Shown one piece after another: positions 2,241 to 62,808 of a stretch of 64,000 bases of DNA; position 1 is the stretch's first letter, and every line of letters starts with the position of its first letter. Both the position numbers and the translations under genes were made by a program. The notes under the pieces were generated by a model. It was not told where the DNA came from, ran no database searches, and saw only the letters and a list, made by a program, of their open reading frames with translations. This DNA is from an uncultured Dehalococcoidia bacterium (GTDB taxonomy: Bacteria > Chloroflexota > Dehalococcoidia > Lucifugimonadales > UBA3495): assembly GCA_958295765.1 (NCBI GenBank), contig CATQHB010000002.1, positions 2,928,091 through 2,992,090 of the forward strand. Direction: 5' to 3'.

Positions 2241-2350
2241 GTTTATGGTGAGGTTGGCTTGGTTAAGACGCTATTGCCTTGAATCACCCCAATACCGGCT
2301 TGACTAAATGTCAACTATGGTTCACACTTGCCCCGGACTGGAGGTAAGCT

Positions 2351-2638
2351 ATGCCGGAAACATTCACCCGTTGGGATGCCGCAGACCACCTGCGTACCGC
2401 AGAGGATGTTTGCCTTTACCTGGAGGCCTGCGCTGAGGAAGACCCGGGCGACGGCAGCCTGATTCGCGCCGCCCTGAACGATATTGCGCGGGCGCAAAAC
2501 ATGAGCCTACTGGCCCGGGAAGTCGGAATGACGCGCGAAGGGCTTTACAAGGCGTTGTCGGAAAAGGGCAATCCCTCTTTCACCACGGTGATGCGGATTA
2601 CCCGCGCCCTCGGAATGAAATTGCGGATTACGGTGTAG
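2351..2638 (+). CDS. HigA-like addiction-module antidote protein (HTH), apparently orphan
   Basis: 95 aa. IRAALNDIARAQNMSLLAREVGMTREGLYKALSEKGNPSFTTVMRITRALGMKL matches, from memory, the 'probable addiction module antidote' family. GGAGGT lies 5 nt before the ATG. No toxin ORF is found upstream. Confidence 0.8.
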   Translation: MPETFTRWDAADHLRTAEDVCLYLEACAEEDPGDGSLIRAALNDIARAQNMSLLAREVGMTREGLYKALSEKGNPSFTTVMRITRALGMKLRITV

Positions 2639-2675
2639 GGGTAAGCGCCGAACTTGGCCTTGCTGCTAAAGGCGG

Positions 2676-3515
2676 CTACGCCACCCCGTCCGTCGCCATT
2701 GCCCGGTCAATTTCGGCGTCCAGGCACAAACCCTGCGGCATTGTTTCGGCCAGGCGCCGCCCGGTGGCGTCCAGTACCTGCCCGTCCCGGAGGGTGAGCC
2801 GGCCCTCGGACACGGCCCGCAGCGTTTCCAGCAGGAGGTAAGGCTCCCGCCGGTATTCGGCCTGGCGTATCTGCTGGAACAGGGGAAACTCCTCTCCCTG
2901 GGCCGTCCGTACCGCGTCCACATCATGCCCGGCCAGTGCTTGCCAGGCGGGGTCAAAGGCCGGGCCGGTAATGGGGGCGGTGCAGTAGGACAGGGCCGGC
3001 CCCCGGTCCACCTCCTCGGTCGCCAGGTGAATCATGGCGCCGGTGCGGGTGGCCCGCTCCCGAATCAGCGTCCAGATGACTTCCTGCCAGGTTCCGATGG
3101 GGCCGTCGGGCAGGGCCGGGTGCAGGTTCAGCAGGGGATAGCGGCGGCACATTTCCCCGCCCATTATCAGCATATACCCGGCCAGCACGCAAATATCCGG
3201 CGCATAGTCAGCCAGGGCCGCTATTATCTGCCGGTCAAACTCCGGCCGCAACTCGGCCCAAGGCGCTCTGGCGCCGTCCGCCGCGCGGCGGGAACGGCGC
3301 AACTCGGCGGAGGAGCGGGTAATCAGGGGGATGCCGTAGGCGGCGACCAGCCGGAAAAACTCATCGGAGCCTTCCGCCTCGCCCGGCCCCCGGTTGCTGA
3401 ACACGAACCGGATCCGGGCCTCCAGCCGGTTGTCCTCAATTCGGTCCTGGACGAACCGCAGCAGGCCCCGGGAGCCTTCGCCCCGTCCGGTAGAAAACCA
3501 GCCAATGTTCAGCAT
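2676..3515 (-). CDS. formyltransferase-domain protein (PurN-like)
   Basis: 279 aa. N-terminal IGWFSTGRGEGSRGLL...FVFSN and LNLHPALPDG resemble the PurN/formyl_trans_N G-rich loop and the N-x-HPS-LLP motif. The gene starts 3 nt after the xseB stop. Confidence 0.6.
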   Translation of the reverse strand: MLNIGWFSTGRGEGSRGLLRFVQDRIEDNRLEARIRFVFSNRGPGEAEGSDEFFRLVAAYGIPLITRSSAELRRSRRAADGARAPWAELRPEFDRQIIAALADYAPDICVLAGYMLIMGGEMCRRYPLLNLHPALPDGPIGTWQEVIWTLIRERATRTGAMIHLATEEVDRGPALSYCTAPITGPAFDPAWQALAGHDVDAVRTAQGEEFPLFQQIRQAEYRREPYLLLETLRAVSEGRLTLRDGQVLDATGRRLAETMPQGLCLDAEIDRAMATDGVA

Positions 3516-3518
3516 CGG

Positions 3519-3848
3519 TTAAAAGGTCCCGGGCAGGTCTTCTTCCGGCCCCCAATCATCGTCCGGCGGCGGCAACTCCGAATCACCCTGCCAAAGGAGT
3601 CCACCGGGCGCGGCATTGGGCGTGCCGGCGTTATCCCGCACCTGAGAAATCCGCAGTTCGGTCTCCTCCAGCAGTTGGCTGCACCGCCGCACCAGACCCA
3701 TGCCCTGCTCATAAAGCTCGGCCGCCTGTTCCAGAGGCAGGCCGCCGGCCTCCAATGTTTCCGCCACCAACCCCAGCCGGGTAAAGGCTTCCTCAAAGGA
3801 TAGGGACTGAGGATTGGGCAAAGGCGAGTCATTCTGCGTTTCAAGCAT
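3519..3848 (-). CDS. xseB: exodeoxyribonuclease VII small subunit
   Basis: 109 aa. SFEEAFTRLGLVAETLEAGGLPLEQAAELYEQGMGLVRRCSQLLEETELRISQV is the typical XseB helical hairpin. Confidence 0.85.
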   Translation of the reverse strand: MLETQNDSPLPNPQSLSFEEAFTRLGLVAETLEAGGLPLEQAAELYEQGMGLVRRCSQLLEETELRISQVRDNAGTPNAAPGGLLWQGDSELPPPDDDWGPEEDLPGTF

Positions 3849-4032
3849 AGGGCGGTGAAACCTCGGCGATAGGCTGACGGATGGACGTGCTGAAAGGTAC
3901 GGGCGATTGGCCCAATCCAGTGTAACCCGTAATCCGGGCGGTGGAAAGGGCCGAGGAGGGTAAAATGCCCGGCGATTGTAAAGTCAACGCCAATGACGGG
4001 GGGATGTTCGTAGTGGGGGGTATCCTTTTGCG

Positions 4033-4106
4033 CCGCTCATCCTGATCTTGTTGAAGGATTAACCGTCGGACGGGGTAGGGTAGTTCGACAAGCTCACCAT
4101 GAGCGG
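4033..4106. repeat. REP-A element (downstream flank of HEPN cassette A)
   Basis: CCGCTCATCCTGATCTTGTTGAAGGA...GTTCGACAAGCTCACCATGAGCGG. Confidence 0.85.
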
Positions 4107-4136
4107 TTTGAGTAGCGTGTTGGTATTGGTGGGGCA

Positions 4137-4649
4137 TTAGTTCCTGAGGGTCAACAAGACATACACCGCAAAGGCGCGCCGGTCTCTGGCCGGAGTCTGG
4201 TGGAATAGTTCAATGGCTTCCGCGGCAGCGGTTATATCCTGAAAGACGGTCGGCTTGGTAAAAGTTGCTTCCGGGGCATAGTCCGCCCTTTGGCGTTTCT
4301 GCTGCATATCGATGAATTCGGAGGCAAACTTCTGGATTCCATAGGGGAATCCCTCGTTGATTGAAGTCTGGCAACGGCGCCGGGCGGTGCCGTGTTCCAG
4401 CGCCCGGTAAGTTTGCCGCCACGCCGGTTCGCTGCGGTCGGCCCCGGCGCCGCCTACCAGCATATCGGCGCAGCAGGCGGCCAGGCAGTGGAACATAGCG
4501 TAGTAAGCGGTGCTGACGGCCCGGCGCAGATTGGTCTGCCGCGGGCGTCCCCGTTGGCCGGCGGCAATCAGGTCTTGGGCCGTAGTGATTAAATTAGATG
4601 GAGTCAATTTTCCCGCGCCGTAGAAAGTATCGGTACTCGGCTTGGTCAA
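4137..4649 (-). CDS. HEPN-like domain protein, cassette copy A
   Basis: RRAVSTAYYAMFH helix, W.QTYRALEHG and a C-terminal QKRQRADY (R..ADY) resemble the classical non-catalytic HEPN fold. Homologous to 7869..8351 and 8809..9291. The ORF-track start is TTG 4649; TTG 4607 would reproduce the 14-nt overlap seen in copies B and C. Confidence 0.55.
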   Translation of the reverse strand: MTKPSTDTFYGAGKLTPSNLITTAQDLIAAGQRGRPRQTNLRRAVSTAYYAMFHCLAACCADMLVGGAGADRSEPAWRQTYRALEHGTARRRCQTSINEGFPYGIQKFASEFIDMQQKRQRADYAPEATFTKPTVFQDITAAAEAIELFHQTPARDRRAFAVYVLLTLRN

Positions 4650-4911
4650 TGAAGGACGGCGAAGGAAACTCCGTTATACCTGCCGCTTCCAGCTTGGGCC
4701 GAACTTTCAGAATCAAGCCGCCGCCAGTCCAATCCGGCTCCAGCCGCTGCTGGTCCCCGTCATAGACAATCAGGACGCGGAGATAGTCATCCCCGCACCA
4801 GTCCACATCAGGATTGACTACGATGGGGCCGAAAACCACTTCTCCGGCATAGTGTCCATTCAGGGTTTCGGCGAAAATTTCCTTGACCTTTTCCAACCCT
4901 TCCAATGTCAT
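4594..4911 (-). CDS. small partner protein of HEPN-like cassette, copy A (in the MNT position but lacking the MNT signature)
   Basis: 105 aa. VVFGPIVVNPDVDWCGDDYLRVLIVYDGDQQRLEPDWTGGG aligns with FVFDPIIVEPAIDPWGGEYLDVFIIFDGDQKNLDPAWTGG of copies B and C. It overlaps the downstream HEPN-like gene. GGAG lies 10 nt upstream of the ATG. Confidence 0.55.
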   Translation of the reverse strand: MTLEGLEKVKEIFAETLNGHYAGEVVFGPIVVNPDVDWCGDDYLRVLIVYDGDQQRLEPDWTGGGLILKVRPKLEAAGITEFPSPSFIDQAEYRYFLRRGKIDSI

Positions 4912-5025
4912 TGTATCTACTCCAGCGCTCCCCTTGGAAATACTTTAGGAGACCGGGGCCTGGCGTGTCAATCGCCCGCTGTCTGGGCCTCAAGGCGTGT
5001 ACCAAGTCTGCGCTAATAATAAAGT

Positions 5026-5085
5026 CCGCTCATCCTGAGCTTGTCGAAGGATGGGTTGGTGGTTCGACAGGCTCACCATGAGCGG
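5026..5085. repeat. REP-A element (upstream flank of HEPN cassette A)
   Basis: Same orientation as 4033..4106. Confidence 0.9.
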
Positions 5086-5142
5086 ATTTTGTTCTTGGCA
5101 TAGACTTTGCAATCGCCCTAGGGTTGTGCCAGGGTTAGATCT

Positions 5143-6558
5143 CTAAAACAGCCGTTCCATTCCCGGCGGTTCGGCGGGTTTGGGGCGGTTGCGGCGGGTT
5201 GTTCGGGGTGGGGATTGCGGCTCTGGCTCCGGATCAGGGTCGGGAACGGTTTCCGGGGTGGGCGTGTCGGCTACCGAGTCGAGGGTGGTGTCGTTGGAGA
5301 CGGTGGTAGTGGGCGCGGCAATTTCGGGGGTGGCGGATTGGGTTAATTCACTGGCTATTCCGTCAATCACCGTGGCCGGGATGGTGCCGTCGGCCAGGGT
5401 GATGGTCAGGGCGTCGCCGCCGGTTACCTGGCCGGCGGTGGTTATTACCTGGCCGGTGTCGTTGCGCTGCACTACCGAGAAGCCCCGCCGCAGGGTGGCC
5501 GCCGGGTCTAAAGTACGCAGCCGGCGCTCCAGGCCGTCCACTTCCACCCGGGCCAGTTGCAGGCGGTTCCTGAAGCCGCCGCTGACCGCATCGCCCAGGT
5601 CGTCCACCCGGCGTTTCAGGCCGTTCAGGTCGGGCAGGGCGGAGTCCAGGCGGCGAGTCAGGTTTGCCACGTCGCCCCGGTTATTGGCGGCGGTGCGCGC
5701 CACTCCCCGCCAGGCCCGGTCGGCCCATTCGCTTACCGCCTGGCGCAGGGCGGCCTGGTCGGGGACTACCAGTTCCGCCGCCGCCGAGGGAGTGGGGGCG
5801 CGCCGGTCAGCCACGTAGTCGGCGATGGTGAAGTCGGTTTCGTGGCCCACGCCGCTGACTACGGGAATCCGGCTGCCAAAGACGGCCCGGGCCACCGCCT
5901 CCTCGTTGAAGGGCCACAGATCTTCCAGGGAGCCGCCGCCCCGGGCCAGGATGATGACGTCAGCGCTGCCTGCGCCGTCCAGCCGGGCCAGGGCGGCGGC
6001 AATGGACGGGGCGGCGTCCAGGCCCTGAACCTGGGTGGGCGATAGGAGCAGGGCCGCCAGGGGGTAGCGGCGGCGGATGACGTTCTGGATGTCCTGCCAG
6101 GCCGCCCCGGTGGGAGAAGTAACTACGCCGACTACTTGGGGAAACAGGGGAAGGGGCCGCTTGCGGGATTCCTCGAACAGGCCCTCCTGGGACAGCCGGG
6201 CTTTCAGCCGTTCCAACTCCCGGGCCAGTTCGCCCTCGCCCTCCGGCAGCACCCGGTCAACCATAAAGTCGATGGAACCCCGGGGTTCGTAGAAACTCAT
6301 CCGCCCGTGGGTCCGCACCGACTTGCCGTTTTCCAGCAGGGCGGCCCCGCTGCCGACGTTCCCCCGGAAGAGGACGCAGTTCAGCGAGGATACGCTGTCC
6401 TTGAGGGTGAAGTAGGTATGGCCGGCGGGTGAGGCGCGCCGGTTGGAAACCTCTCCGACAATCCACAGGTCGGAGAGAAAGGGATGGCTTTCCAGCAACT
6501 CCCGCAGGTGGGTGGTTACCTGGCTGACGGTGAAGATTTCCTGCTGCGGGTAAGCCAA
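5143..6558 (-). CDS. xseA: exodeoxyribonuclease VII large subunit
   Basis: 471 aa. FTVSQVTTHLRELLESHPFLSDLWIVGEVSN...GHTYFTLKD (OB fold) plus the central catalytic and coiled-coil region. It has a Pro/Thr/Glu-rich C-terminal tail. Confidence 0.9.
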   Translation of the reverse strand: MAYPQQEIFTVSQVTTHLRELLESHPFLSDLWIVGEVSNRRASPAGHTYFTLKDSVSSLNCVLFRGNVGSGAALLENGKSVRTHGRMSFYEPRGSIDFMVDRVLPEGEGELARELERLKARLSQEGLFEESRKRPLPLFPQVVGVVTSPTGAAWQDIQNVIRRRYPLAALLLSPTQVQGLDAAPSIAAALARLDGAGSADVIILARGGGSLEDLWPFNEEAVARAVFGSRIPVVSGVGHETDFTIADYVADRRAPTPSAAAELVVPDQAALRQAVSEWADRAWRGVARTAANNRGDVANLTRRLDSALPDLNGLKRRVDDLGDAVSGGFRNRLQLARVEVDGLERRLRTLDPAATLRRGFSVVQRNDTGQVITTAGQVTGGDALTITLADGTIPATVIDGIASELTQSATPEIAAPTTTVSNDTTLDSVADTPTPETVPDPDPEPEPQSPPRTTRRNRPKPAEPPGMERLF

Positions 6559-6567
6559 GGCGCGGCC

Positions 6568-7134
6568 CTAGCTGACCCGCTCGGTGTACTGGCCGGTACG
6601 GGTGTCCACCCGCACCACCGTGCCGGGGGTGATGAACATAGGGACGTTGACCCGCAGGCCGGTTTCCAGGGTGGCCGGCTTGTTGCCGCCCTGGGCGGTG
6701 TCGCCCCGGAAGGCCGGCGGCGTGTCCACCACCTCCAGGTCCACGTGGATGGGCAGGTTCACGTTGATGGAGTTGCCCTTGTAAAGCACCATCTCCACCA
6801 TCATATTCTCTTTCAGGTAGTCCAGGGTGGAACCCAGTTGGCTCTTGGTAAGCTCATACTGGTCGAAGGTTTCCTGGTCGAGGAAGTAATAATAACTGCC
6901 GTCGGTGTAGAGGTACTGGGTTTCCCGGTTGTCAATCTCTGCCACGGCGAACTCGGTATCGTAACGCTGGAAAGTACGCTCCACCACCGCGCCGGAGATG
7001 AGGTTTTTCATCTTGATGCGGGTAACCGGGGCGCGCTGCTGCATCTTGTGGCGCTCATAGTCCATAATCTGCCAGGGCTGGCCGTCCAGCTCGATAACCA
7101 TATTCCGGCTCAGGTCGCTGAAGTTTATGCTCAT
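6568..7134 (-). CDS. efp: elongation factor P
   Basis: 188 aa, with three-domain EF-P-like sequence throughout (YLYTDGSYYYFLDQETFDQYEL, VDTPPAFRGDTAQGGNKPATLETG). The loop tip reads HKMQQR34AP instead of KPGKG. Confidence 0.9.
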   Translation of the reverse strand: MSINFSDLSRNMVIELDGQPWQIMDYERHKMQQRAPVTRIKMKNLISGAVVERTFQRYDTEFAVAEIDNRETQYLYTDGSYYYFLDQETFDQYELTKSQLGSTLDYLKENMMVEMVLYKGNSINVNLPIHVDLEVVDTPPAFRGDTAQGGNKPATLETGLRVNVPMFITPGTVVRVDTRTGQYTERVS

Positions 7135-7176
7135 TCTTTTCTCCCGATTTATTCGCTGCGGGTTTGCTATGCTAGG

Positions 7177-7620
7177 CTACTCGACCGGTGCGGACTGGCC
7201 CCAAGTCAGGCGGCCCAGGCGGGCTTGCTGGCGGGCGGTTCGGGGAACAAAGCCGCCGTTGGGGGAGCGGCGCGCCCGTTCCAACCTTCGCGTCAATACC
7301 TCTACGGCGTTAATACCTTCCTGAATTGCCGTTTCAGTCAGCCAATCCTCGTAGAAGTTTTTGTGCAGTTCACTGGCCTCTTTGAATAGACGGTCCAGCC
7401 GTTCCCGCCGGCGTTCGTCATTGAGTTGCGCCACCACGTCAAAGAGCAGGCCGTGGTCGTGGTGGTTCCAGTTCCGTGCGGCAGCAACACCTTTAACCGC
7501 CAGGGCGGCGGCGCCCCAAGCCTTTTCCGATGCTTGGCGCAGGTCGCCCCGGTCTAACTCGGCTTGCGCCTGAGTTAGGAGGTTTTGGCTGTCTTCCGTG
7601 TAATGGGCGTATTTCTGCAT
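7177..7620 (-). CDS. PaREP1-like (HEPN-superfamily) protein
   Basis: 147 aa. ASEKAWGAAALAVKGVAAARNWNHHDHGLLFDVVAQL matches, from memory, the PaREP1 signature. It lies directly upstream of efp with a 42-nt gap. Confidence 0.5.
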   Translation of the reverse strand: MQKYAHYTEDSQNLLTQAQAELDRGDLRQASEKAWGAAALAVKGVAAARNWNHHDHGLLFDVVAQLNDERRRERLDRLFKEASELHKNFYEDWLTETAIQEGINAVEVLTRRLERARRSPNGGFVPRTARQQARLGRLTWGQSAPVE

Positions 7621-7721
7621 ATTGTTGCTTCTTGGCGGTGTGCCAGTCCAGTATATACCAACCGGGGGCGATTTTCACCGGGAGGGCGCATCGTTTCAAG
7701 GCTGGTGCAAAGTCCTAAATT

Positions 7722-7806
7722 CGCTCATGGTGAGCTTGTCGAACCACCCTTCCGTATCCGGTGGTTCTTCTTTCAGTTCATCCTTCGACTGGTTCAGGAT
7801 GAGCGG
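7722..7806. repeat. REP-A element, inverted orientation
   Basis: CGCTCATGGTGAGCTTGTCGAACC...CCTTCGACTGGTTCAGGATGAGCGG. Confidence 0.85.
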
Positions 7807-7868
7807 GGAGGTCAACTCGGTCGGCTTTGTACCTACCCTGGCCTCGGTCTGACCGTCTGCCACCGGCC

Positions 7869-8351
7869 TTACTCCCGCCTTCGGAACAGGACGTAAATGG
7901 CAAATTCCCGTCGCTGGCCCCGGTCGGCAGCCTCAAACCCGGCAATAATGCTCACGGCCTGGTCAACCAGTTGCATAACCCGGGTGCGGTCAAAGGTTAC
8001 ACCGGGATCGTAATCGGCAAGATGGCGCTCCCGTTGCAACTCGACGAACAGCCTTCCGAAACGCCGAATTTCCAGCGGGAACCGGCTCATCATGACCCGG
8101 TTAGCGCACTGGTGGCGGGCTAAGCCATGTTCCAAAGCCCGGTAAGTCTGACGCCAACCCGGGCGGGTTCGGTTGACCGGCGTACTGCCGGCCAGCGTAT
8201 CGGCGCAGGATTGGGCCAGGGCGTGAAACAGGGCGTAATAGGCGGCGCTGACCGCTCGGCACAGGTCGGTTTGCCGGGGCCGGCCCCGCCGCCCGCTCAC
8301 CGAACCGGTTGCCAAGTGCCGGGCAATTCTAATCAAATCACCAGAAGTCAT
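7869..8351 (-). CDS. HEPN-like domain protein, cassette copy B
   Basis: 160 aa from ATG 8351 (the ORF track extends to 8432). CRAVSAAYYALFHALA, WRQTYRALEHG, LQRERHLADY. The ATG sits inside the partner's last codons, giving a 14-nt overlap (ATGACTTCTGGTGA). Confidence 0.6.
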   Translation of the reverse strand: MTSGDLIRIARHLATGSVSGRRGRPRQTDLCRAVSAAYYALFHALAQSCADTLAGSTPVNRTRPGWRQTYRALEHGLARHQCANRVMMSRFPLEIRRFGRLFVELQRERHLADYDPGVTFDRTRVMQLVDQAVSIIAGFEAADRGQRREFAIYVLFRRRE

Positions 8352-8664
8352 CGCGCCTCGGGTACTTGCCGTGGTAAACTGCTTGCCACTCGCTCTTTTC
8401 CACGTAGGCAAAGCTCGGAACGCTGGGTACACCTAACCGATCCAGTTCCGGGTCTAGCCGGACTGACAACCCCCCGGTCCAGGCGGGGTCCAGATTCTTC
8501 TGGTCGCCGTCGAATATGATGAAAACGTCCAGGTATTCCCCGCCCCAGGGGTCGATGGCCGGTTCAACGATAATCGGGTCGAACACGAACTCGTCCTTGA
8601 ACCGCTCCCGCAATGCCTTGCCAACTATGCCGGCGAACTCGTCGGCTACCTCCCTGCTAATCAT
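8338..8664 (-). CDS. small partner protein of HEPN-like cassette, copy B
   Basis: 108 aa from ATG 8664 (MISREVADEF...), with GGGAG 7 nt upstream. The ORF-track extension to 8787 has no support from copy A. Confidence 0.6.
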   Translation of the reverse strand: MISREVADEFAGIVGKALRERFKDEFVFDPIIVEPAIDPWGGEYLDVFIIFDGDQKNLDPAWTGGLSVRLDPELDRLGVPSVPSFAYVEKSEWQAVYHGKYPRRDDFW

Positions 8665-8808
8665 TGCCCTACTCCCGCAACGGTTTGAGCGCATATCCCC
8701 AATGGCGTCTCTACGCCGGGGTTTTGTATTCACTTGGATACTCTGAGGGTATGCGGAGATTTTACTTGCCAGGATTACCTGGGGCAAGGGGCGAAGTGCG
8801 CCTTGCCC

Positions 8809-9291
8809 TTACTCCCGCCGTCGGAACAGGACGTAAATGGCAAATTCCCGCCGCTGGCCCCGGTCGGCAGCCTCAAAGCCGGCAATAATGCTCACGGCCT
8901 GGTCAACCAGTTGCATAACCCGGGTGCGGTCAAAGGTTACACCGGGGTCGTAATCGGCAAGGTGGCGCTCCCGTTGCAACTCGACGAACAGTTTTCCGAA
9001 ATCCCGAATTTCTAACGGGAACCGGCTCATCATGACCCGGTTATCGCACTGGCGGCGGGCTAAGCCGTGCTCCAAAGCCCGGTAAGTCTGCCGCCAACCC
9101 GGGCGGGTTCGGTTGACCGGCGTACTGCCGGCCAGCAGATCGGCGCAGGATTGAGCCAGGGCGTGAAACAGGGCATAGTAGGCGGCGCTGACCGCCCGGC
9201 ACAGGTCGGTTTGCCGCGGCCGGCCCCGCCGCCCGCTTACCCCACCGGAGGCCAGATGCCGGGCAATTCTAACCAAATCACCAGAAGTCAT
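8809..9291 (-). CDS. HEPN-like domain protein, cassette copy C
   Basis: 160 aa, with 8 substitutions relative to copy B. Same 14-nt overlap with its partner. Confidence 0.6.
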   Translation of the reverse strand: MTSGDLVRIARHLASGGVSGRRGRPRQTDLCRAVSAAYYALFHALAQSCADLLAGSTPVNRTRPGWRQTYRALEHGLARRQCDNRVMMSRFPLEIRDFGKLFVELQRERHLADYDPGVTFDRTRVMQLVDQAVSIIAGFEAADRGQRREFAIYVLFRRRE

Positions 9292-9604
9292 CTCGCCTCG
9301 GGTACTTGCCGTGGTAAACTGCTTGCCACTCGCTCTTTTCCACGTAGGCAAAGCTCGGACAGCTGGGTACACCTAACCGATCCAGTTCCGGGTCTAGCCG
9401 GCCTGACAACCCCCCGGTCCAGCCGGGATCCAAATTCTTCTGGTCGCCGTCGAATATGATGAAAACGTCCAGATATTCCCCGCCCCAGGGGTCAATGGCC
9501 GGTTCAACGATAATCGGGTCAAACACGAAATCGTCCTTGAACCGCTCCCGCAACGCCTTGCCAACTATGCCGGCGAACTCGTCGGCTACCTCCCTGCTAA
9601 TCAT
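9278..9604 (-). CDS. small partner protein of HEPN-like cassette, copy C
   Basis: 108 aa from ATG 9604, with 4 substitutions relative to copy B. ORF-track 9278..10087 is a read-through extension antisense to the peptidase gene. Confidence 0.6.
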   Translation of the reverse strand: MISREVADEFAGIVGKALRERFKDDFVFDPIIVEPAIDPWGGEYLDVFIIFDGDQKNLDPGWTGGLSGRLDPELDRLGVPSCPSFAYVEKSEWQAVYHGKYPRRDDFW

Positions 9605-9699
9605 TGCCCTACTCCCGCAATGGTTTGAGCGCATATCCCAAATGGCGTCGCTACGCCGGGGTGTTTTATTCACCTGGAGACCCGGATACGCAGGGGTTT

Positions 9700-10767
9700 C
9701 TACTTCCCCGCCTTGCTCAATGGCGTGGCCCCTTCCTCGCCCAAAATCACGATGTCCTCGATGCGGACGCCGCCCCAGCCGGTCAGGTAGATGCCTGGCT
9801 CTACGGTGAAAACCATGCCCGCTTGCAGGGCGTCTTTGCCCCGGGCACTGACCCAGGGTTTTTCGTGGACGACCAGGCCGACGCCGTGGCCCAGGCTGTG
9901 GCCGAAGTTGTCGCCGTAGCCGGCCTCGGTGATTACGTCCCGGGAAAGGGCGTCGCACTCCTCGCCGGTCAGGCCGGGGCGCACGGTGTGGATGGCGGTA
10001 AGCTGGGCGCCCAGCACGATGCCGTAAATCTTGTGGAACATTTCGTCCGGCTCGCCCACCACCACGGTGCGGGTGATGTCGCTGCAATAGCCGCCTACCT
10101 GGGCGCCCATATCAATCACAATCGGCTCCCCGGCCTGGATGACGTAGTCGCTGGGGTGGTGGTGCGCCATGGCGCCGTTAGGCCCGGCGGCCACGATGGT
10201 ATCAAAGCTGATGCAGTCGGCGCCGAACTCCCGCATCGCCACTTCCATTTTCCAGGCTACTTCCTTTTCCGTCATCCCCGCCGCAATGGTGGGGCAGACG
10301 GCCTCCATAGCCTTATCCGAGGCGTCAATGGCCTTTTGCAGTTGGGTCAGTTCCTCTCCATCCTTGAGAATCCGCAACTCCTCGGTGATGCCGGCGGTGG
10401 CGACCAGGGAGGCTTGGCTCAGGGCCTCGTCCTCTTTCAGGGCTTCCAGCACCCGGTTGTAGGAGCCGACGGTGATGTTCTCACTCTCAAAGCCGATGCG
10501 CCGGACGCCGGTTTCCTTCAGCGTATCCAGCAGCCAGTCCCAGCCGGCCCGCACCTGCACCACCTGGAAATGGGGGGACTGATTGGCCGCCTGCTCGGTA
10601 TAGCGGGAGTCGGTGAACAGCACCGACCGCTCCGGGGTAATCAGCAGGTAGCCGGCCGAGCCGGTGAAACCGGACAGGTAGCGGCGGTTCTCCGGGGCGG
10701 AAATCAGCATAGCGTCCAGGTCCCGCTCCGCCAGTTGAGCGGCTAGTTGGGCAGCGCGTTCTTTCAT
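9700..10767 (-). CDS. pepP: Xaa-Pro aminopeptidase/dipeptidase (M24B family)
   Basis: 355 aa with a creatinase-like N-domain and pita-bread C-domain. Metal ligands lie in DMGAQVGGYCSDITRT, HSLGHGVGL.VHE and TVEPG.Y......GVRIED. It sits between aroQ and efp, as in Bacillus-type synteny. Confidence 0.85.
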   Translation of the reverse strand: MKERAAQLAAQLAERDLDAMLISAPENRRYLSGFTGSAGYLLITPERSVLFTDSRYTEQAANQSPHFQVVQVRAGWDWLLDTLKETGVRRIGFESENITVGSYNRVLEALKEDEALSQASLVATAGITEELRILKDGEELTQLQKAIDASDKAMEAVCPTIAAGMTEKEVAWKMEVAMREFGADCISFDTIVAAGPNGAMAHHHPSDYVIQAGEPIVIDMGAQVGGYCSDITRTVVVGEPDEMFHKIYGIVLGAQLTAIHTVRPGLTGEECDALSRDVITEAGYGDNFGHSLGHGVGLVVHEKPWVSARGKDALQAGMVFTVEPGIYLTGWGGVRIEDIVILGEEGATPLSKAGK

Positions 10768-28287: not shown

Positions 28288-28536
28288 TGGTTCGACAGGC
28301 TCACCATGAGCGATATTGTTCTCACCATGAGCGGGTATTGTCGGTTTCCCTGCCTACCCGTCCCGCTCATCCTGAGCTTGTCGAAGGGCTGAATTGGGGT
28401 GGTTCGACAGGCTCACCATGAGCGATATTGTCGGTTGCCCTGCCTACCCGTCCCGCTCATCCTGAGCTTGTCGAAGGATGGTGTGCCGGTGGTTCGACAG
28501 GCTCACCATGAGCGATATTGTTCTCACCATGAGCGG
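28288..28536. repeat. REP-A cluster (about three elements)
   Basis: GGTTCGACAGGCTCACCATGAGCG / CCGCTCATCCTGAGCTTGTCGAAGG alternate three times. Confidence 0.85.
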
Positions 28537-51894: not shown

Positions 51895-52211
51895 CCGCTC
51901 ATGGTGAGCTTGTCGAACCAGTGCCGGCATACCATCCTTCGACAGGCTCAGGATGAGCGGGGGTTAGGGACAAAATCCGCGCCCGGTAACAAAATCCGCT
52001 CATGGTGAGCTTGTCGAACCAGCACCGGCATACCGTCCTTCGACAGGCTCAGGATGAGTGGGGAGAGGGACAAATCCGATCATGGTGAGCGGGGGCCAGG
52101 AACAAAACCCGCTCTAGGAACAAAATCCGCGCCCGGTAACAAAACCCGCTCATGGTGAGCTTGTCGAACCAGCGCCGGCATACCATCCTTCGACAGGCTC
52201 AGGATGAGCGG
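51895..52211. repeat. REP-A cluster (three full elements in ~120-bp tandem units)
   Basis: AAAATCCGCTCATGGTGAGCTTGTCGAACCAG..CCTTCGACAGGCTCAGGATGAG[CT]GG occurs three times. Confidence 0.9.
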
Positions 52212-62076: not shown

Positions 62077-62808
62077 CCGCTCATCCTGAGCCTGTCGAAG
62101 GATGCCGGCAAGGTAAGGGGGCGTGGTTCGACAAGCTCACCATGAGCGGGCTTGTTCTTGTGAGCCGAATTCTGGTGAGCGGATTTTATTACCACTCCCC
62201 GCTCATCCTGAGCCTGTCGAAGGATGGCCGGAAGGTAAGGGGCGTGGTTCGACAAGCTCACCATGAGCGGACTTCGTTCTCCGGTATATCCGGTTAAGCC
62301 ATTGCTGGTATCCCGGCTAAACCTCGGTCAGGTTGGGCGACTCCTCCACTCCCCGCTCATTCTGAGCCTGTCGAAGGATGCCGGCAAGGTAAGGGGGCGT
62401 GGTTCGACAAGCTCACCATGAGCGGACTTAATTCTCTCCCCGCTCATTCTGAGCCTGTCGAAGGATGCCGGCAAGGTAAGGGGGCGTGGTTCGACAAGCT
62501 CACCATGAGCGGACTTAATTCTCTCCCCGCTCATTCTGAGCCTGTCGAAGGATGCCGGCAAGGTAAGGGGGCGTGGTTCGACAAGCTCACCATGAGCGGA
62601 CTTAATTCTCTCCCCGCTCATTCTGAGCCTGTCGAAGGATGCCGGCAAGGTAAGGGGGCGTGGTTCGACAAGCTCACCATGAGCGGACTTGTTCTTGTGA
62701 GCCGAATTCTGGTGAGCGGATTTTATTATCACTCCCCGCTCATCCTGAGCTTATCGAAGGATGCCGGCAAGGTAAGGTGGCGTGGTTCGACAAGCTCACC
62801 ATGAGCGG
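62077..62808. repeat. REP-A super-cluster: 87-bp tandem array (4 units, 62354..62701) nested in a ~538-bp direct duplication
   Basis: Unit starts at 62354, 62441, 62528 and 62615. The flanking segments ~62100-62340 and ~62639-62880 are near-identical. Confidence 0.9.

What the first reader, a model, noticed from the sequence alone, without database searches (positions are those of the whole stretch)
4033..5085. HEPN-like plus small-partner two-gene cassette wedged between xseA and xseB and bracketed by two same-orientation REP-A hairpins
xseA (5143-6558) and xseB (3519-3848) are co-directional and encode the two subunits of one enzyme. Here they are separated by 1.3 kb holding two overlapping genes on the same strand.

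The first gene (4594-4911) encodes a 105-aa protein. The second (4137-4649, or 4137-4607 from the alternative start) encodes a 156-170-aa protein with RRAVSTAYYAMFH, W.QTYRALEHG and QKRQRADY. I read this pattern as the classical HEPN four-helix fold.

The layout, a small gene first with a stop/start overlap, is that of MNT-HEPN toxin-antitoxin pairs. Both canonical signatures are absent, however: there is no Rx4-6H RNase motif in the HEPN-like protein and no GS..DxD nucleotidyltransferase motif in the partner. The partner does have a conserved D-[VL]-hhhh-DGD strand and a W.GG motif.

If the HEPN-like gene starts at TTG 4607, the overlap (TTGACTCCATCTAA, 14 nt) is the same length as in copies B and C.

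REP-A elements at 4033-4106 and 5026-5085 flank the cassette in the same orientation. GC is host-like, about 60% in a spot count of the copy B partner gene.
Basis: partly seen in the sequence, partly recalled or inferred. Interest (0 to 1): 0.65.

Follow-up and report, generated by a model that had tools for sequence, protein, structure and literature searches.

The report
HEPN-like toxin–antitoxin-type gene pair
Between the two exonuclease VII genes sits a tightly coupled two-gene module: a small acidic protein of unclassified fold followed by a divergent HEPN (RNase-type) protein. It looks like an undescribed toxin–antitoxin family that lacks the usual nucleotidyltransferase antitoxin.

Summary
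xseA and xseB are real and are separated by two overlapping same-strand genes: a small partner (4594-4911) and a HEPN-like gene (4137-4607, TTG start). REP hairpins flank them.

The downstream protein is a divergent HEPN of the AF0298/UPF0332 type. It keeps the Arg and has D-Y where the canonical motif has His. It also has the alternative conserved His that was described for that subfamily in 2013.

The upstream protein is acidic (pI 4.6), with a confident alpha-beta-beta-alpha-beta-alpha model. No relative and no nucleotidyltransferase signature was found.

The two genes are obligately linked:
- 80 of 80 HEPN-like loci from several phyla have the partner directly upstream.
- All three distant partners checked are followed by a HEPN-like gene.
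- 60 of 83 pairs overlap by exactly 14 nt, mostly with TTG or GTG starts.

The module is multi-copy (three in this window), varies in copy number between strains, has lost its HEPN gene in one strain lineage, and also sits on conjugative Rhizobium plasmids.

The REPs are incidental, and the xseA–xseB position is ancestral to a Dehalococcoidia clade. The best reading is a toxin–antitoxin-like module neutralised by binding. Toxicity is untested.

The parts
4594..4911 (-). Small partner gene, copy A. 105 aa, ATG start with GGAG 8-11 nt upstream. Acidic, pI 4.6. Predicted antitoxin-like subunit.
   Evidence: ORF. AF2 model has pLDDT 94.5 with topology a-b-b-a-b-a. The family has 445 clusters at 50% identity. 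No Pfam, NCBIfam, PADLOC or PDB-sequence hit. Only synonymous changes among strains, 11-13 syn and 0 nonsyn, though the look-up was by identical protein. pI.
4137..4607 (-). HEPN-like gene, copy A. 156 aa from TTG 4607. Basic, pI 9.5. Divergent AF0298/UPF0332-type HEPN and predicted toxin or effector. Key residues are R105, D109, Y110, H72, the GRPRQ loop and DRRAFAVY.
   Evidence: Homologues are about 157 aa. The 14 extra codons of the long ORF change nonsynonymously between strains while being synonymous in the partner's frame. AF2 model is all-helical, pLDDT 87. PDB profile hits 2hsb and 9xbd. Foldseek. Conservation.
4594..4607 (-). 14-nt start/stop overlap (TTGACTCCATCTAA), implying translational coupling with a weak start codon.
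   Evidence: Sequence. Across the family 60 of 83 pairs overlap by exactly 14 nt. Start codons are TTG 44, GTG 21, ATG 18.
4942..4971 (-). Promoter-like site TTGACA-18-TAAAGT, about 30 nt upstream of the small gene.
   Evidence: 10 of 12 consensus match. The stretch is conserved in all strain variants, including L001 whose upstream flank differs. This is a consensus match only.
5026..5085 (.). REP hairpin between xseA and the cassette. A genome-wide repeat, not part of the module.
   Evidence: Absent at this place in strain L001.
4033..4106 (.). REP hairpin between the cassette and xseB. A genome-wide repeat, not part of the module.
   Evidence: Precisely absent in L001, L002 and L005.
7869..8664 (-). 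Copy B of the module: small gene 8338-8664 and HEPN-like gene 7869-8351, with a 14-nt overlap.
   Evidence: tblastn (35% and 46% identity to copy A). ORFs. B-type orthologues at the same pepP-efp position in L029, L017, L021 and L170.
8809..9604 (-). Copy C: small gene 9278-9604 and HEPN-like gene 8809-9291. Tandem duplicate of B with a 940-nt period and about 95% identity.
   Evidence: Strains carry 2 or 3 tandem copies.
5143..6558 (-). xseA, exonuclease VII large subunit (context).
   Evidence: TIGR00237 at 5e-132, plus PF02601.
3519..3848 (-). xseB, exonuclease VII small subunit (context).
   Evidence: TIGR01280 at 5e-17, plus PF02609.

Best explanation
This is a self-contained two-gene operon of the toxin–antitoxin type. 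It has its own promoter-like site.

The first gene makes a small acidic alpha/beta protein from a good ATG and Shine-Dalgarno sequence. The second gene starts at a weak TTG inside the last 14 nt of the first, so it is translationally coupled and made in smaller amounts. It encodes a basic, arginine-rich HEPN protein of the AF0298/UPF0332 subtype.

In that subtype the canonical Rx4-6H site is replaced by R...DY plus an alternative His. Here these are R105, D109-Y110 and H72.

The inferred mechanism is that the acidic partner binds and masks the HEPN protein, giving type II-like neutralisation by binding. This differs from the AMPylation used by MNT antitoxins. When the partner is depleted, the HEPN protein would act on RNA and stop growth.

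Shown: gene structure, HEPN relationship, obligate linkage, co-divergence, multi-copy and plasmid occurrence, and strain-level loss of the HEPN gene.

Inferred: physical binding, RNase activity, toxicity, and which protein is the toxin.
For: - **Linkage:** 80 of 80 HEPN-like loci from Dehalococcoidia, Latescibacterota, Vicinamibacterales, Spirochaetia and Proteobacteria have the partner directly upstream on the same strand. All three distant partners checked (seven contigs) are followed by a HEPN-like ORF.
- **Gene coupling:** a conserved 14-nt overlap, with 65 of 83 non-ATG starts.
- **Co-divergence:** Mantel r = 0.78 against a maximum of 0.23 in 999 permutations. The partner diverges faster, mean p-distance 0.58 against 0.42.
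- **Charge complementarity:** pI 4.7 against 9.8.
- **HEPN relationship:**. The motif pattern matches the AF0298-type HEPN described in PMC3710099.
- **Selfish-element behaviour:** three copies in 6 kb; 2 or 3 tandem copies among strains; several genomes with two or more loci; 30 Rhizobium plasmids, 20 of them conjugative, with one pair 3 kb from repC; unrelated housekeeping neighbours.
- **Gene loss:** in strains L002 and L005 the HEPN gene is deleted after about codon 22 while the partner stays intact.
- **Selection:** both genes are under purifying selection where intact.
Against: - No toxicity, binding or RNase data exist for any member of either family.
- The AF0298 subtype has, to my knowledge, never been shown to cleave RNA, and its His-less site may be inactive.
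- The partner has no recognisable DNA-binding domain, unlike most type II antitoxins.
- Both cassettes have been kept at the same two positions across several species. That is more stable than many chromosomal TA loci and would fit a domesticated role.
- Foldseek E-values for HEPN are weak (best 0.07, TM 0.39-0.56) and no Pfam model reaches its cut-off.
- Disruptions elsewhere are not clearly one-sided: the HEPN gene is split in L021, L059 and L061, and the partner is split in L008.
Confidence: 0.6

Rival explanations
1. The pair is a domesticated, non-toxic heterocomplex, for example an RNA-binding or regulatory pair. In this Dehalococcoidia clade it would have become a stable accessory of the aroQ-pepP-efp-xseA-xseB-purN housekeeping cluster. 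The HEPN domain would act as a binding module, not as a nuclease.
For: A-type and B-type cassettes sit at the same two positions in several species whose xseA is only 75-79% identical. Both genes are under purifying selection. The canonical catalytic His is missing. The cassettes are co-directional and tightly packed inside operons here and elsewhere, for example DUF58-DUF4129 in at least 10 loci and cytochrome c-CcmH.
Against: Other family members lie in unrelated contexts and on conjugative plasmids near repC. Copy number varies between strains, and the HEPN gene is deleted in one lineage with no change to its neighbours. Distribution across phyla is patchy. R105, H72 and Y110 are invariant or nearly so, which suggests an active site more than a scaffold.
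Confidence: 0.2
2. This is a type VII-like system in disguise. The small partner would be an extremely reduced nucleotidyltransferase descendant. It would either still modify the invariant Tyr110 of the R..DY motif or have lost catalysis and kept only binding.
For: The gene order and overlap are those of MNT-HEPN pairs. The partner has a nearly invariant D-G-D at the end of strand 2 and an F-G/D-P turn. Four of 72 members give weak hits to PF03445, the DUF294 nucleotidyltransferase family, best E = 0.003. PDB entries 9xbd and 9xbc differ in the aligned stretch by Y to F at the equivalent Tyr, which suggests the depositors consider it functionally important. Its order of helices and strands resembles an MNT core without helix 2; this last point is from memory and is a lead only.
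Against: There is no hG[GS] motif and no DxD on a strand-2 start. No PDB chain is matched by the partner profile even at E = 10. No nucleotidyltransferase appears among the top 50 Foldseek PDB matches, although many MNT structures exist. An equally weak hit count goes to the unrelated DUF3640.
Confidence: 0.08
3. The cassette is a REP-bounded mobile unit that recently transposed into the xseA-xseB spacer.
For: Two same-orientation REP hairpins flank it. Its GC3 is lower than that of its neighbours.
Against: The REP half-site occurs 47 times in 64 kb, in many intergenic spaces. Strain L001 has the cassette without either REP, and L002 and L005 lack the downstream one. Orthologous cassettes occupy the same site in other species. 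Copies B and C are not bracketed in this way.
Confidence: 0.03

Closest known systems
AF0298-like (UPF0332) HEPN proteins of the classical HEPN family, Pfam PF05168 (PDB 2hsb; also 9xbd)
   Same: The alignment is colinear over helix 2 (STAYYAMFH in both) and helix 3 (R-x-x-[AS]-D-Y). The Arg of the motif is kept and the His is replaced. An alternative conserved His lies in the insert between helices 2 and 3, as described in PMC3710099. One family member is named 'UPF0332 family' by JGI.
   Different: It is about 30 residues longer, with an invariant GRPRQ loop and a C-terminal DRRAFAVY helix. Similarity is below Pfam's cut-off (best E = 0.003, 7 of 34 members). The partner is not a nucleotidyltransferase.
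Type VII HepT/MntA (HEPN-MNT) toxin-antitoxin systems, e.g. Shewanella HepT-MntA and Legionella HEPN-MNT (PMC11586414)
   Same: A small antitoxin-position gene comes first and a HEPN gene second, with a start/stop overlap. The modules are multi-copy and horizontally spread. HEPN toxin structures are among the best Foldseek matches: 8xeh, 8xdj, 8yuf, 7bxo, 6m6w.
   Different: The partner lacks the G[SG] and DxD nucleotidyltransferase motifs and has no detectable MNT similarity. The HEPN protein lacks Rx4HxY. Neutralisation by AMPylation is therefore unlikely.
HEPN toxins with non-MNT protein antitoxins, e.g. RnlA-RnlB and LsoA-LsoB (PMC8266594)
   Same: The concept is the same: a HEPN RNase held inactive by direct binding of a small, unrelated protein antitoxin.
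   Different: RnlA is a large multidomain protein and its toxin gene comes first. No sequence or fold relationship to RnlB was seen.

Membership tests
HEPN superfamily (classical HEPN, PF05168, AF0298/UPF0332 subtype) | Detectable sequence-profile similarity to established HEPN proteins | tested here: met
   Family profile against all PDB chains: the three best hits are all HEPN. They are 2hsb (E=0.0016), 9xbd (E=0.0091) and 9xbc (E=0.058), and the alignments are colinear (earlier profile). PF05168 is the top weak family, with 7 of 34 members and best E = 0.003.
HEPN superfamily (classical HEPN, PF05168, AF0298/UPF0332 subtype) | Score above Pfam's gathering threshold for a HEPN-clan model | tested here: not met
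   The window protein gets no Pfam hit even at E = 1. Other members give only sub-threshold PF05168 hits.
HEPN superfamily (classical HEPN, PF05168, AF0298/UPF0332 subtype) | All-alpha up-down helical bundle with an insert between core helices 2 and 3 | tested here: inconclusive
   The AF2 model (pLDDT 87) has helices at 3-15, 24-51, [60-69, 72-82], 89-110, 118-137 and 140-151. HEPN structures fill ranks 1-6 and 8-11 of the Foldseek PDB list, but the best E is 0.07 and TM is 0.39-0.56.
HEPN superfamily (classical HEPN, PF05168, AF0298/UPF0332 subtype) | Canonical Rx4-6H motif at the end of helix 3 | tested here: not met
   R105 is invariant, but the following residues are A108-D109-Y110 with no His.
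HEPN superfamily (classical HEPN, PF05168, AF0298/UPF0332 subtype) | AF0298-subtype signature: Arg kept, His replaced, alternative conserved His in the helix 2-3 insert (PMC3710099) | tested here: met
   R105 is invariant, D109 and Y110 are invariant, and H72 is at least 90% conserved within the insert, at the start of helix 72-82.
HEPN superfamily (classical HEPN, PF05168, AF0298/UPF0332 subtype) | RNA cleavage activity | not testable with these tools
   Needs biochemistry.
Type VII MNT-HEPN (MntA/HepT) toxin-antitoxin | Partner is a minimal nucleotidyltransferase with hG[GS] and DxD motifs | tested here: not met
   No Pfam, NCBIfam or PDB-sequence hit. The model topology is a-b-b-a-b-a. No nucleotidyltransferase is in the top 50 Foldseek matches. 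The conserved residues are F27, P29, D37, G40, G52-D53, D58, W61 and P83.
Type VII MNT-HEPN (MntA/HepT) toxin-antitoxin | Antitoxin gene upstream and overlapping the HEPN gene | tested here: met
   14-nt overlap here and in 60 of 83 pairs.
Type VII MNT-HEPN (MntA/HepT) toxin-antitoxin | Toxin neutralised by NMPylation of a Tyr next to the active site | not testable with these tools
   Y110 is invariant, but no transferase is evident.
Type II-like toxin-antitoxin module (generic) | Two small co-directional, coupled genes that always occur together | tested here: met
   80 of 80 loci, and all 3 distant partners checked (7 contigs), in the reverse direction. Mantel r = 0.78.
Type II-like toxin-antitoxin module (generic) | Patchy, multi-copy, horizontally mobile distribution, including plasmids | tested here: met
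   Five or more phyla. Three copies in the window. Strain copy-number variation. Thirty Rhizobium plasmids, 20 of them conjugative.
Type II-like toxin-antitoxin module (generic) | Antitoxin carries a DNA-binding domain for autoregulation | tested here: not met
   No HTH, RHH or AbrB hit. The model is a compact alpha/beta fold.
Type II-like toxin-antitoxin module (generic) | Toxicity of one product, rescued by the other | not testable with these tools
   Needs expression experiments. The only indirect hint is deletion of the HEPN gene with the partner retained in L002 and L005.

The most novel reading that the evidence does not exclude
The small acidic protein founds a previously unrecognised antitoxin fold family, with about 445 clusters at 50% identity and no curated model. 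It would be dedicated to one HEPN subtype whose RNase activity uses the non-canonical Arg plus alternative-His site proposed in 2013 and, as far as I know, never tested. The pair would then be a new HEPN toxin-antitoxin type, neutralised by binding and without an MNT. It would also give a tractable system to test whether AF0298-type 'His-less' HEPN domains are real nucleases.
Probability: 0.4. Interest if true: 0.6.

Novelty: new variant of a known kind. Interest (0 to 1): 0.45.

Why it matters
HEPN domains are among the most widespread RNase toxin and defence modules. The AF0298/UPF0332 subtype lacks the catalytic His, and its activity is only a prediction.

This module pairs that subtype with a partner that is not the usual nucleotidyltransferase. 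It would therefore add a new antitoxin family and a different way of controlling a HEPN protein.

It is abundant in Dehalococcoidia and other poorly studied soil and sediment phyla, and also on Rhizobium plasmids, where it is annotated only as hypothetical. A curated family model would improve annotation of TA and defence inventories in these genomes.

The finding does not overturn any concept. It extends a known one.

Tried and rejected
- **Family libraries.** Pfam, NCBIfam and PADLOC scans of both proteins gave nothing at E <= 1 apart from noise.
- **Partner against PDB sequences.** The partner profile matched no chain even at E = 10.
- **Partner against structures.** Foldseek against PDB and BFVD gave only heterogeneous weak matches: OsmC/Ohr, Era and RbfA KH-like domains, CzrB, and uncharacterised phage proteins. 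All had E >= 0.008, so no fold assignment was made.
- **HEPN family against the neighbouring PaREP1 protein.** hhalign found no relationship, probability 0.1%.
- **Building an MNT profile.** I tried to make an MNT alignment from the fetched loci for a profile-profile test of the partner. Two MNT-signature regex scans over about 1.3 Mb found no MNT gene, so the test could not be run.
- **Apparent HEPN truncation in L003 and L004.** The 119-aa and 108-aa gene calls are caller artefacts from the TTG start. The ORFs are intact.
- **REP-bounded mobile cassette.** Rejected.
- **A conserved third gene or defence-island context.** Neighbours are heterogeneous housekeeping genes.
- **Phages and RNA families.** No phage genome hit and no Rfam family in 3000-10000.
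- **Literature.** Searches found no paper on this pair.
- **Other insertions between xseA and xseB.** Those in distant loci (L089, L092, L116, L134) carry nothing related.
Full report
**1. Observation**

- xseA (5143-6558, minus strand) matches TIGR00237 at 5e-132, and xseB (3519-3848) matches TIGR01280 at 5e-17.
- Between them lie a 105-aa ORF (4594-4911) and a 170-aa ORF (4137-4649) on the same strand. All the quoted peptide strings are present.
- The REP hairpins at 4033-4106 and 5026-5085 are real and lie in the same orientation. Their 23-nt half-site occurs 47 times in the window against 0 expected.
- Two further copies of the cassette lie at 7869-8664 and 8809-9604. They form a 940-nt tandem duplication with about 95% identity. 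Their identity to copy A is 35% for the small protein and 46% for the HEPN-like protein.

**2. Start codon**

The HEPN-like gene starts at TTG 4607, not at 4649. Three results support this.
- Homologues are about 157 aa long.
- Among strain variants, the 14 extra codons of the long ORF carry nonsynonymous changes (K3R, D7G, A12V). The same changes are synonymous in the small gene's frame.
- Across the family, 60 of 83 pairs overlap by exactly 14 nt. The start codon is TTG in 44, GTG in 21 and ATG in 18.

A strong ATG with a Shine-Dalgarno sequence for gene 1, and a weak start embedded in the end of gene 1 for gene 2, is a conserved design.

**3. The downstream protein**

No curated model matches the window protein. 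Several independent results nevertheless point to a HEPN relationship.
- A family profile searched against all PDB sequences finds HEPN proteins as its three best hits: AF0298 (2hsb, E=0.0016), 9xbd (E=0.009) and 9xbc (E=0.058). The alignments are colinear over STAYYAMFH in helix 2 and R-x-x-[AS]-D-Y in helix 3.
- Seven of 34 members give sub-threshold hits to PF05168 (HEPN), which is the commonest weak family. JGI names one member 'UPF0332 family'.
- The AF2 model (pLDDT 87) is an all-helical bundle. HEPN structures fill ranks 1-6 and 8-11 of its Foldseek PDB list: 2hsb, 4nqf, the Legionella HEPN toxin and 1wty. HepT appears further down. E-values are weak, with the best at 0.07.

The missing Rx4-6H motif has a published explanation. 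Anantharaman et al. 2013 (PMC3710099) describe the AF0298-type HEPN-T family. It keeps the Arg, lacks the His, and has a second conserved His in the insert between helices 2 and 3 that could form an alternative active site.

That pattern is seen here. R105, D109 and Y110 are invariant. H72 is at least 90% conserved and lies in the insert.

I therefore file the protein as a divergent member of the HEPN superfamily, closest to the AF0298/UPF0332 subtype. The caveats are that it falls below Pfam's threshold and that the structural match is only suggestive.

**4. The upstream protein**

- It is acidic: pI 4.6, family median 4.7, net charge about -7. The HEPN-like protein is basic: pI 9.5, median 9.8.
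- The AF2 model is confident (pLDDT 94.5). Its topology is a1(3-21)-b1(26-36)-b2(42-51)-a2(59-76)-b3(82-89)-a3(90-98).
- Nearly invariant residues are R20, F27, P29, I30, D37, G40, G52-D53, L57-D58, W61 and P83.
- No PDB chain matches its profile even at E = 10.
- Foldseek gives only weak, mixed hits and no nucleotidyltransferase in the top 50.
- It lacks the hG[GS] and DxD-strand motifs of MNT antitoxins.
- A full-library HMM search finds 445 clusters at 50% identity, so this is a sizeable family with no curated model.
- Four of 72 members weakly hit the DUF294 nucleotidyltransferase model. I could not locate the aligned region, and an unrelated family scores equally. I treat this as an unexplained hint only.

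**5. Linkage of the two genes**

- A scan of one genome per species found 207 relatives of the HEPN-like protein. All of the best 80 have the partner directly upstream on the same strand. By record title these are about 52 Dehalococcoidia, 12 Latescibacterota, 7 Vicinamibacterales or Vicinamibacteria, 3 Spirochaetia, 4 Proteobacteria and 2 other Chloroflexota.
- In the reverse direction, all three most distant partners I looked up are followed by a HEPN-like ORF, including loci where gene callers missed it.
- Pairwise distances of the two proteins co-vary. Mantel r is 0.78 against a maximum of 0.23 in 999 permutations. The partner diverges faster. Part of this correlation reflects shared species history.

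**6. Population and evolutionary behaviour**

- Five strain-level contigs, about 5% divergent in DNA, carry 2 or 3 tandem B-type copies.
- In L002 and L005 the copy-A HEPN gene is deleted after about codon 22 and replaced by unrelated sequence. The partner gene there remains intact.
- Where intact, both genes show mostly synonymous change: partner 11-13 syn and 0 nonsyn, HEPN 12-14 syn and 2-6 nonsyn. The partner figure is biased because the loci were retrieved by an identical-protein look-up.
- The family also occurs on 30 Rhizobium plasmids, 20 of them conjugative. One pair lies about 3 kb from repC. All are annotated as hypothetical.
- No phage genome carries it.
- Neighbours elsewhere are unrelated housekeeping genes, and the cassette often sits co-directionally inside operons. 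Examples are DUF58-DUF4129 in at least 10 loci and cytochrome c-CcmH.

**7. The xseA-xseB position and the REPs**

- The A-type cassette lies between xseA and xseB in four other Dehalococcoidia species: L008, L017, L021 and L029. Their xseA is 75-79% identical to the window's. In the three where I compared the HEPN protein (L008, L017, L029) it is 63-68% identical.
- The B-type cassette lies between pepP and efp in L029, L017, L021 and L170.
- Both positions are therefore ancestral to a clade. The cassette genes evolve faster than their neighbours.
- In 80 more distant xseA loci the cassette is absent. In 39 of the 45 loci with a downstream xseB, the two genes are less than 150 nt apart. The split xse operon is thus a derived, clade-specific state.
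- The REPs are unrelated to the cassette. L001 keeps the cassette without either REP, and L002 and L005 lack the downstream one.

**8. Mechanism**

The best-supported reading is a toxin-antitoxin-type module. An abundant acidic partner would bind and mask a basic HEPN effector that is made in smaller amounts through coupled, weak-start translation. The effector would act on RNA through the R105/H72 site when freed.

Shown: architecture, HEPN affinity, obligate linkage and selfish-element-like distribution.

Inferred: binding, RNase activity, toxicity, and the assignment of toxin and antitoxin roles.

Rivals:
- A domesticated non-toxic complex. The long syntenic retention and the missing His favour it (confidence 0.2).
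- A cryptic type VII-like system in which the partner is a reduced nucleotidyltransferase acting on Tyr110 (confidence 0.08).
- A REP-bounded mobile unit, which the data contradict (confidence 0.03).

**9. Novelty**

The pair has no name, no curated model and no paper that I could find.

It is a new variant of a known kind: a HEPN module with an undescribed non-MNT partner family. It is moderately interesting. It is worth a family definition and a toxicity and rescue test, but it does not shift any concept.

Noticed in passing
window 7177-7620 (-): A 147-aa PaREP1-family gene (PF05942, a HEPN-clan family described mainly from archaea) lies between efp and cassette copy B. It is truncated to 48 aa in strain L004 and absent at this position in the related species L029. 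hhalign shows no relationship to the cassette's HEPN-like family.
   Followed up: partly
window 7869-9604; L001-L004: The B/C tandem duplication (940-nt period, about 95% identity) varies in copy number between closely related strains. There are two copies in the window, L001, L003 and L004, and three in L002.
   Followed up: partly
window 2351-2638 (+): A 95-aa HigA-like HTH antitoxin gene (PF21716 dnstrm_HI1420 and HTH_3 in the strain loci) has no upstream partner in the window. L001 and L004 have an adjacent 103-aa gene there, which is absent in L002, L003 and L005. A REP half-site lies at 2085-2107. This looks like a second case where an adjacent partner gene has been lost and the antitoxin-like gene kept.
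   Followed up: no
window 62077-62808, also 28291-28515 and 51895-52211: REP hairpins occur in arrays. Seven hairpins lie in 62077-62808, four of them at an exact 87-nt period (62353, 62440, 62527, 62614). Translated, the repeat gives the 'MVSLSNH...RQAQDER' pseudo-ORFs seen at 3841-4137 and 4990-5112.
   Followed up: no
L007 3314-4002, L075 3200-3963, L170 2063-2833; P0228 (215 aa): Some loci carry two partner genes in tandem ahead of a single HEPN-like gene. Some database proteins are fusions of two partner domains, or carry an extra N-terminal region of about 125 aa with no Pfam match (P0236, P0243, P0249, P0269, P0295).
   Followed up: no
L010, L013, L023, L024, L026, L036, L045, L047, L057 (about 2300-5900): In at least nine Dehalococcoidia genomes the cassette sits co-directionally, with almost no spacer, between a DUF58 gene and a DUF4129-containing gene. 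In L168 it lies between a cytochrome c gene and ccmH. Placement inside an operon seems to be a habit of this module.
   Followed up: partly
PDB 9xbd and 9xbc: In the stretch aligned to this family, the two recently deposited 'HEPN domain-containing protein' chains differ by Y to F at the Tyr of R-N-R-S-D-Y. This is the residue equivalent to the invariant Y110 here, which suggests the depositors regard it as functionally important. No paper was found.
   Followed up: no
A3 members: Four of 72 small-partner proteins give weak Pfam hits to PF03445 (DUF294, putative nucleotidyltransferase; best E = 0.003). Four others hit DUF3640. I could not see which members or which region, so the meaning is unknown.
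   Followed up: no
window 5143-5200; L001 5712-5935: The 3' end of xseA encodes a Pro/Asp/Glu-rich low-complexity tail. This tail and the spacer after it are replaced by different sequence in strain L001, whose xseA is 469 aa against 471 aa. The cassette promoter region from about 4985 onward is conserved.
   Followed up: no
L006 7646-10480: One A-type relative (the P0004 locus) lies about 2 kb from genes for GmrSD_N, HEPN_RiboL-PSP and DUF4276 plus an AAA_15/AAA_21 ATPase (an OLD/Gabija-like context). This defence-type neighbourhood was not seen in the other loci annotated.
   Followed up: no
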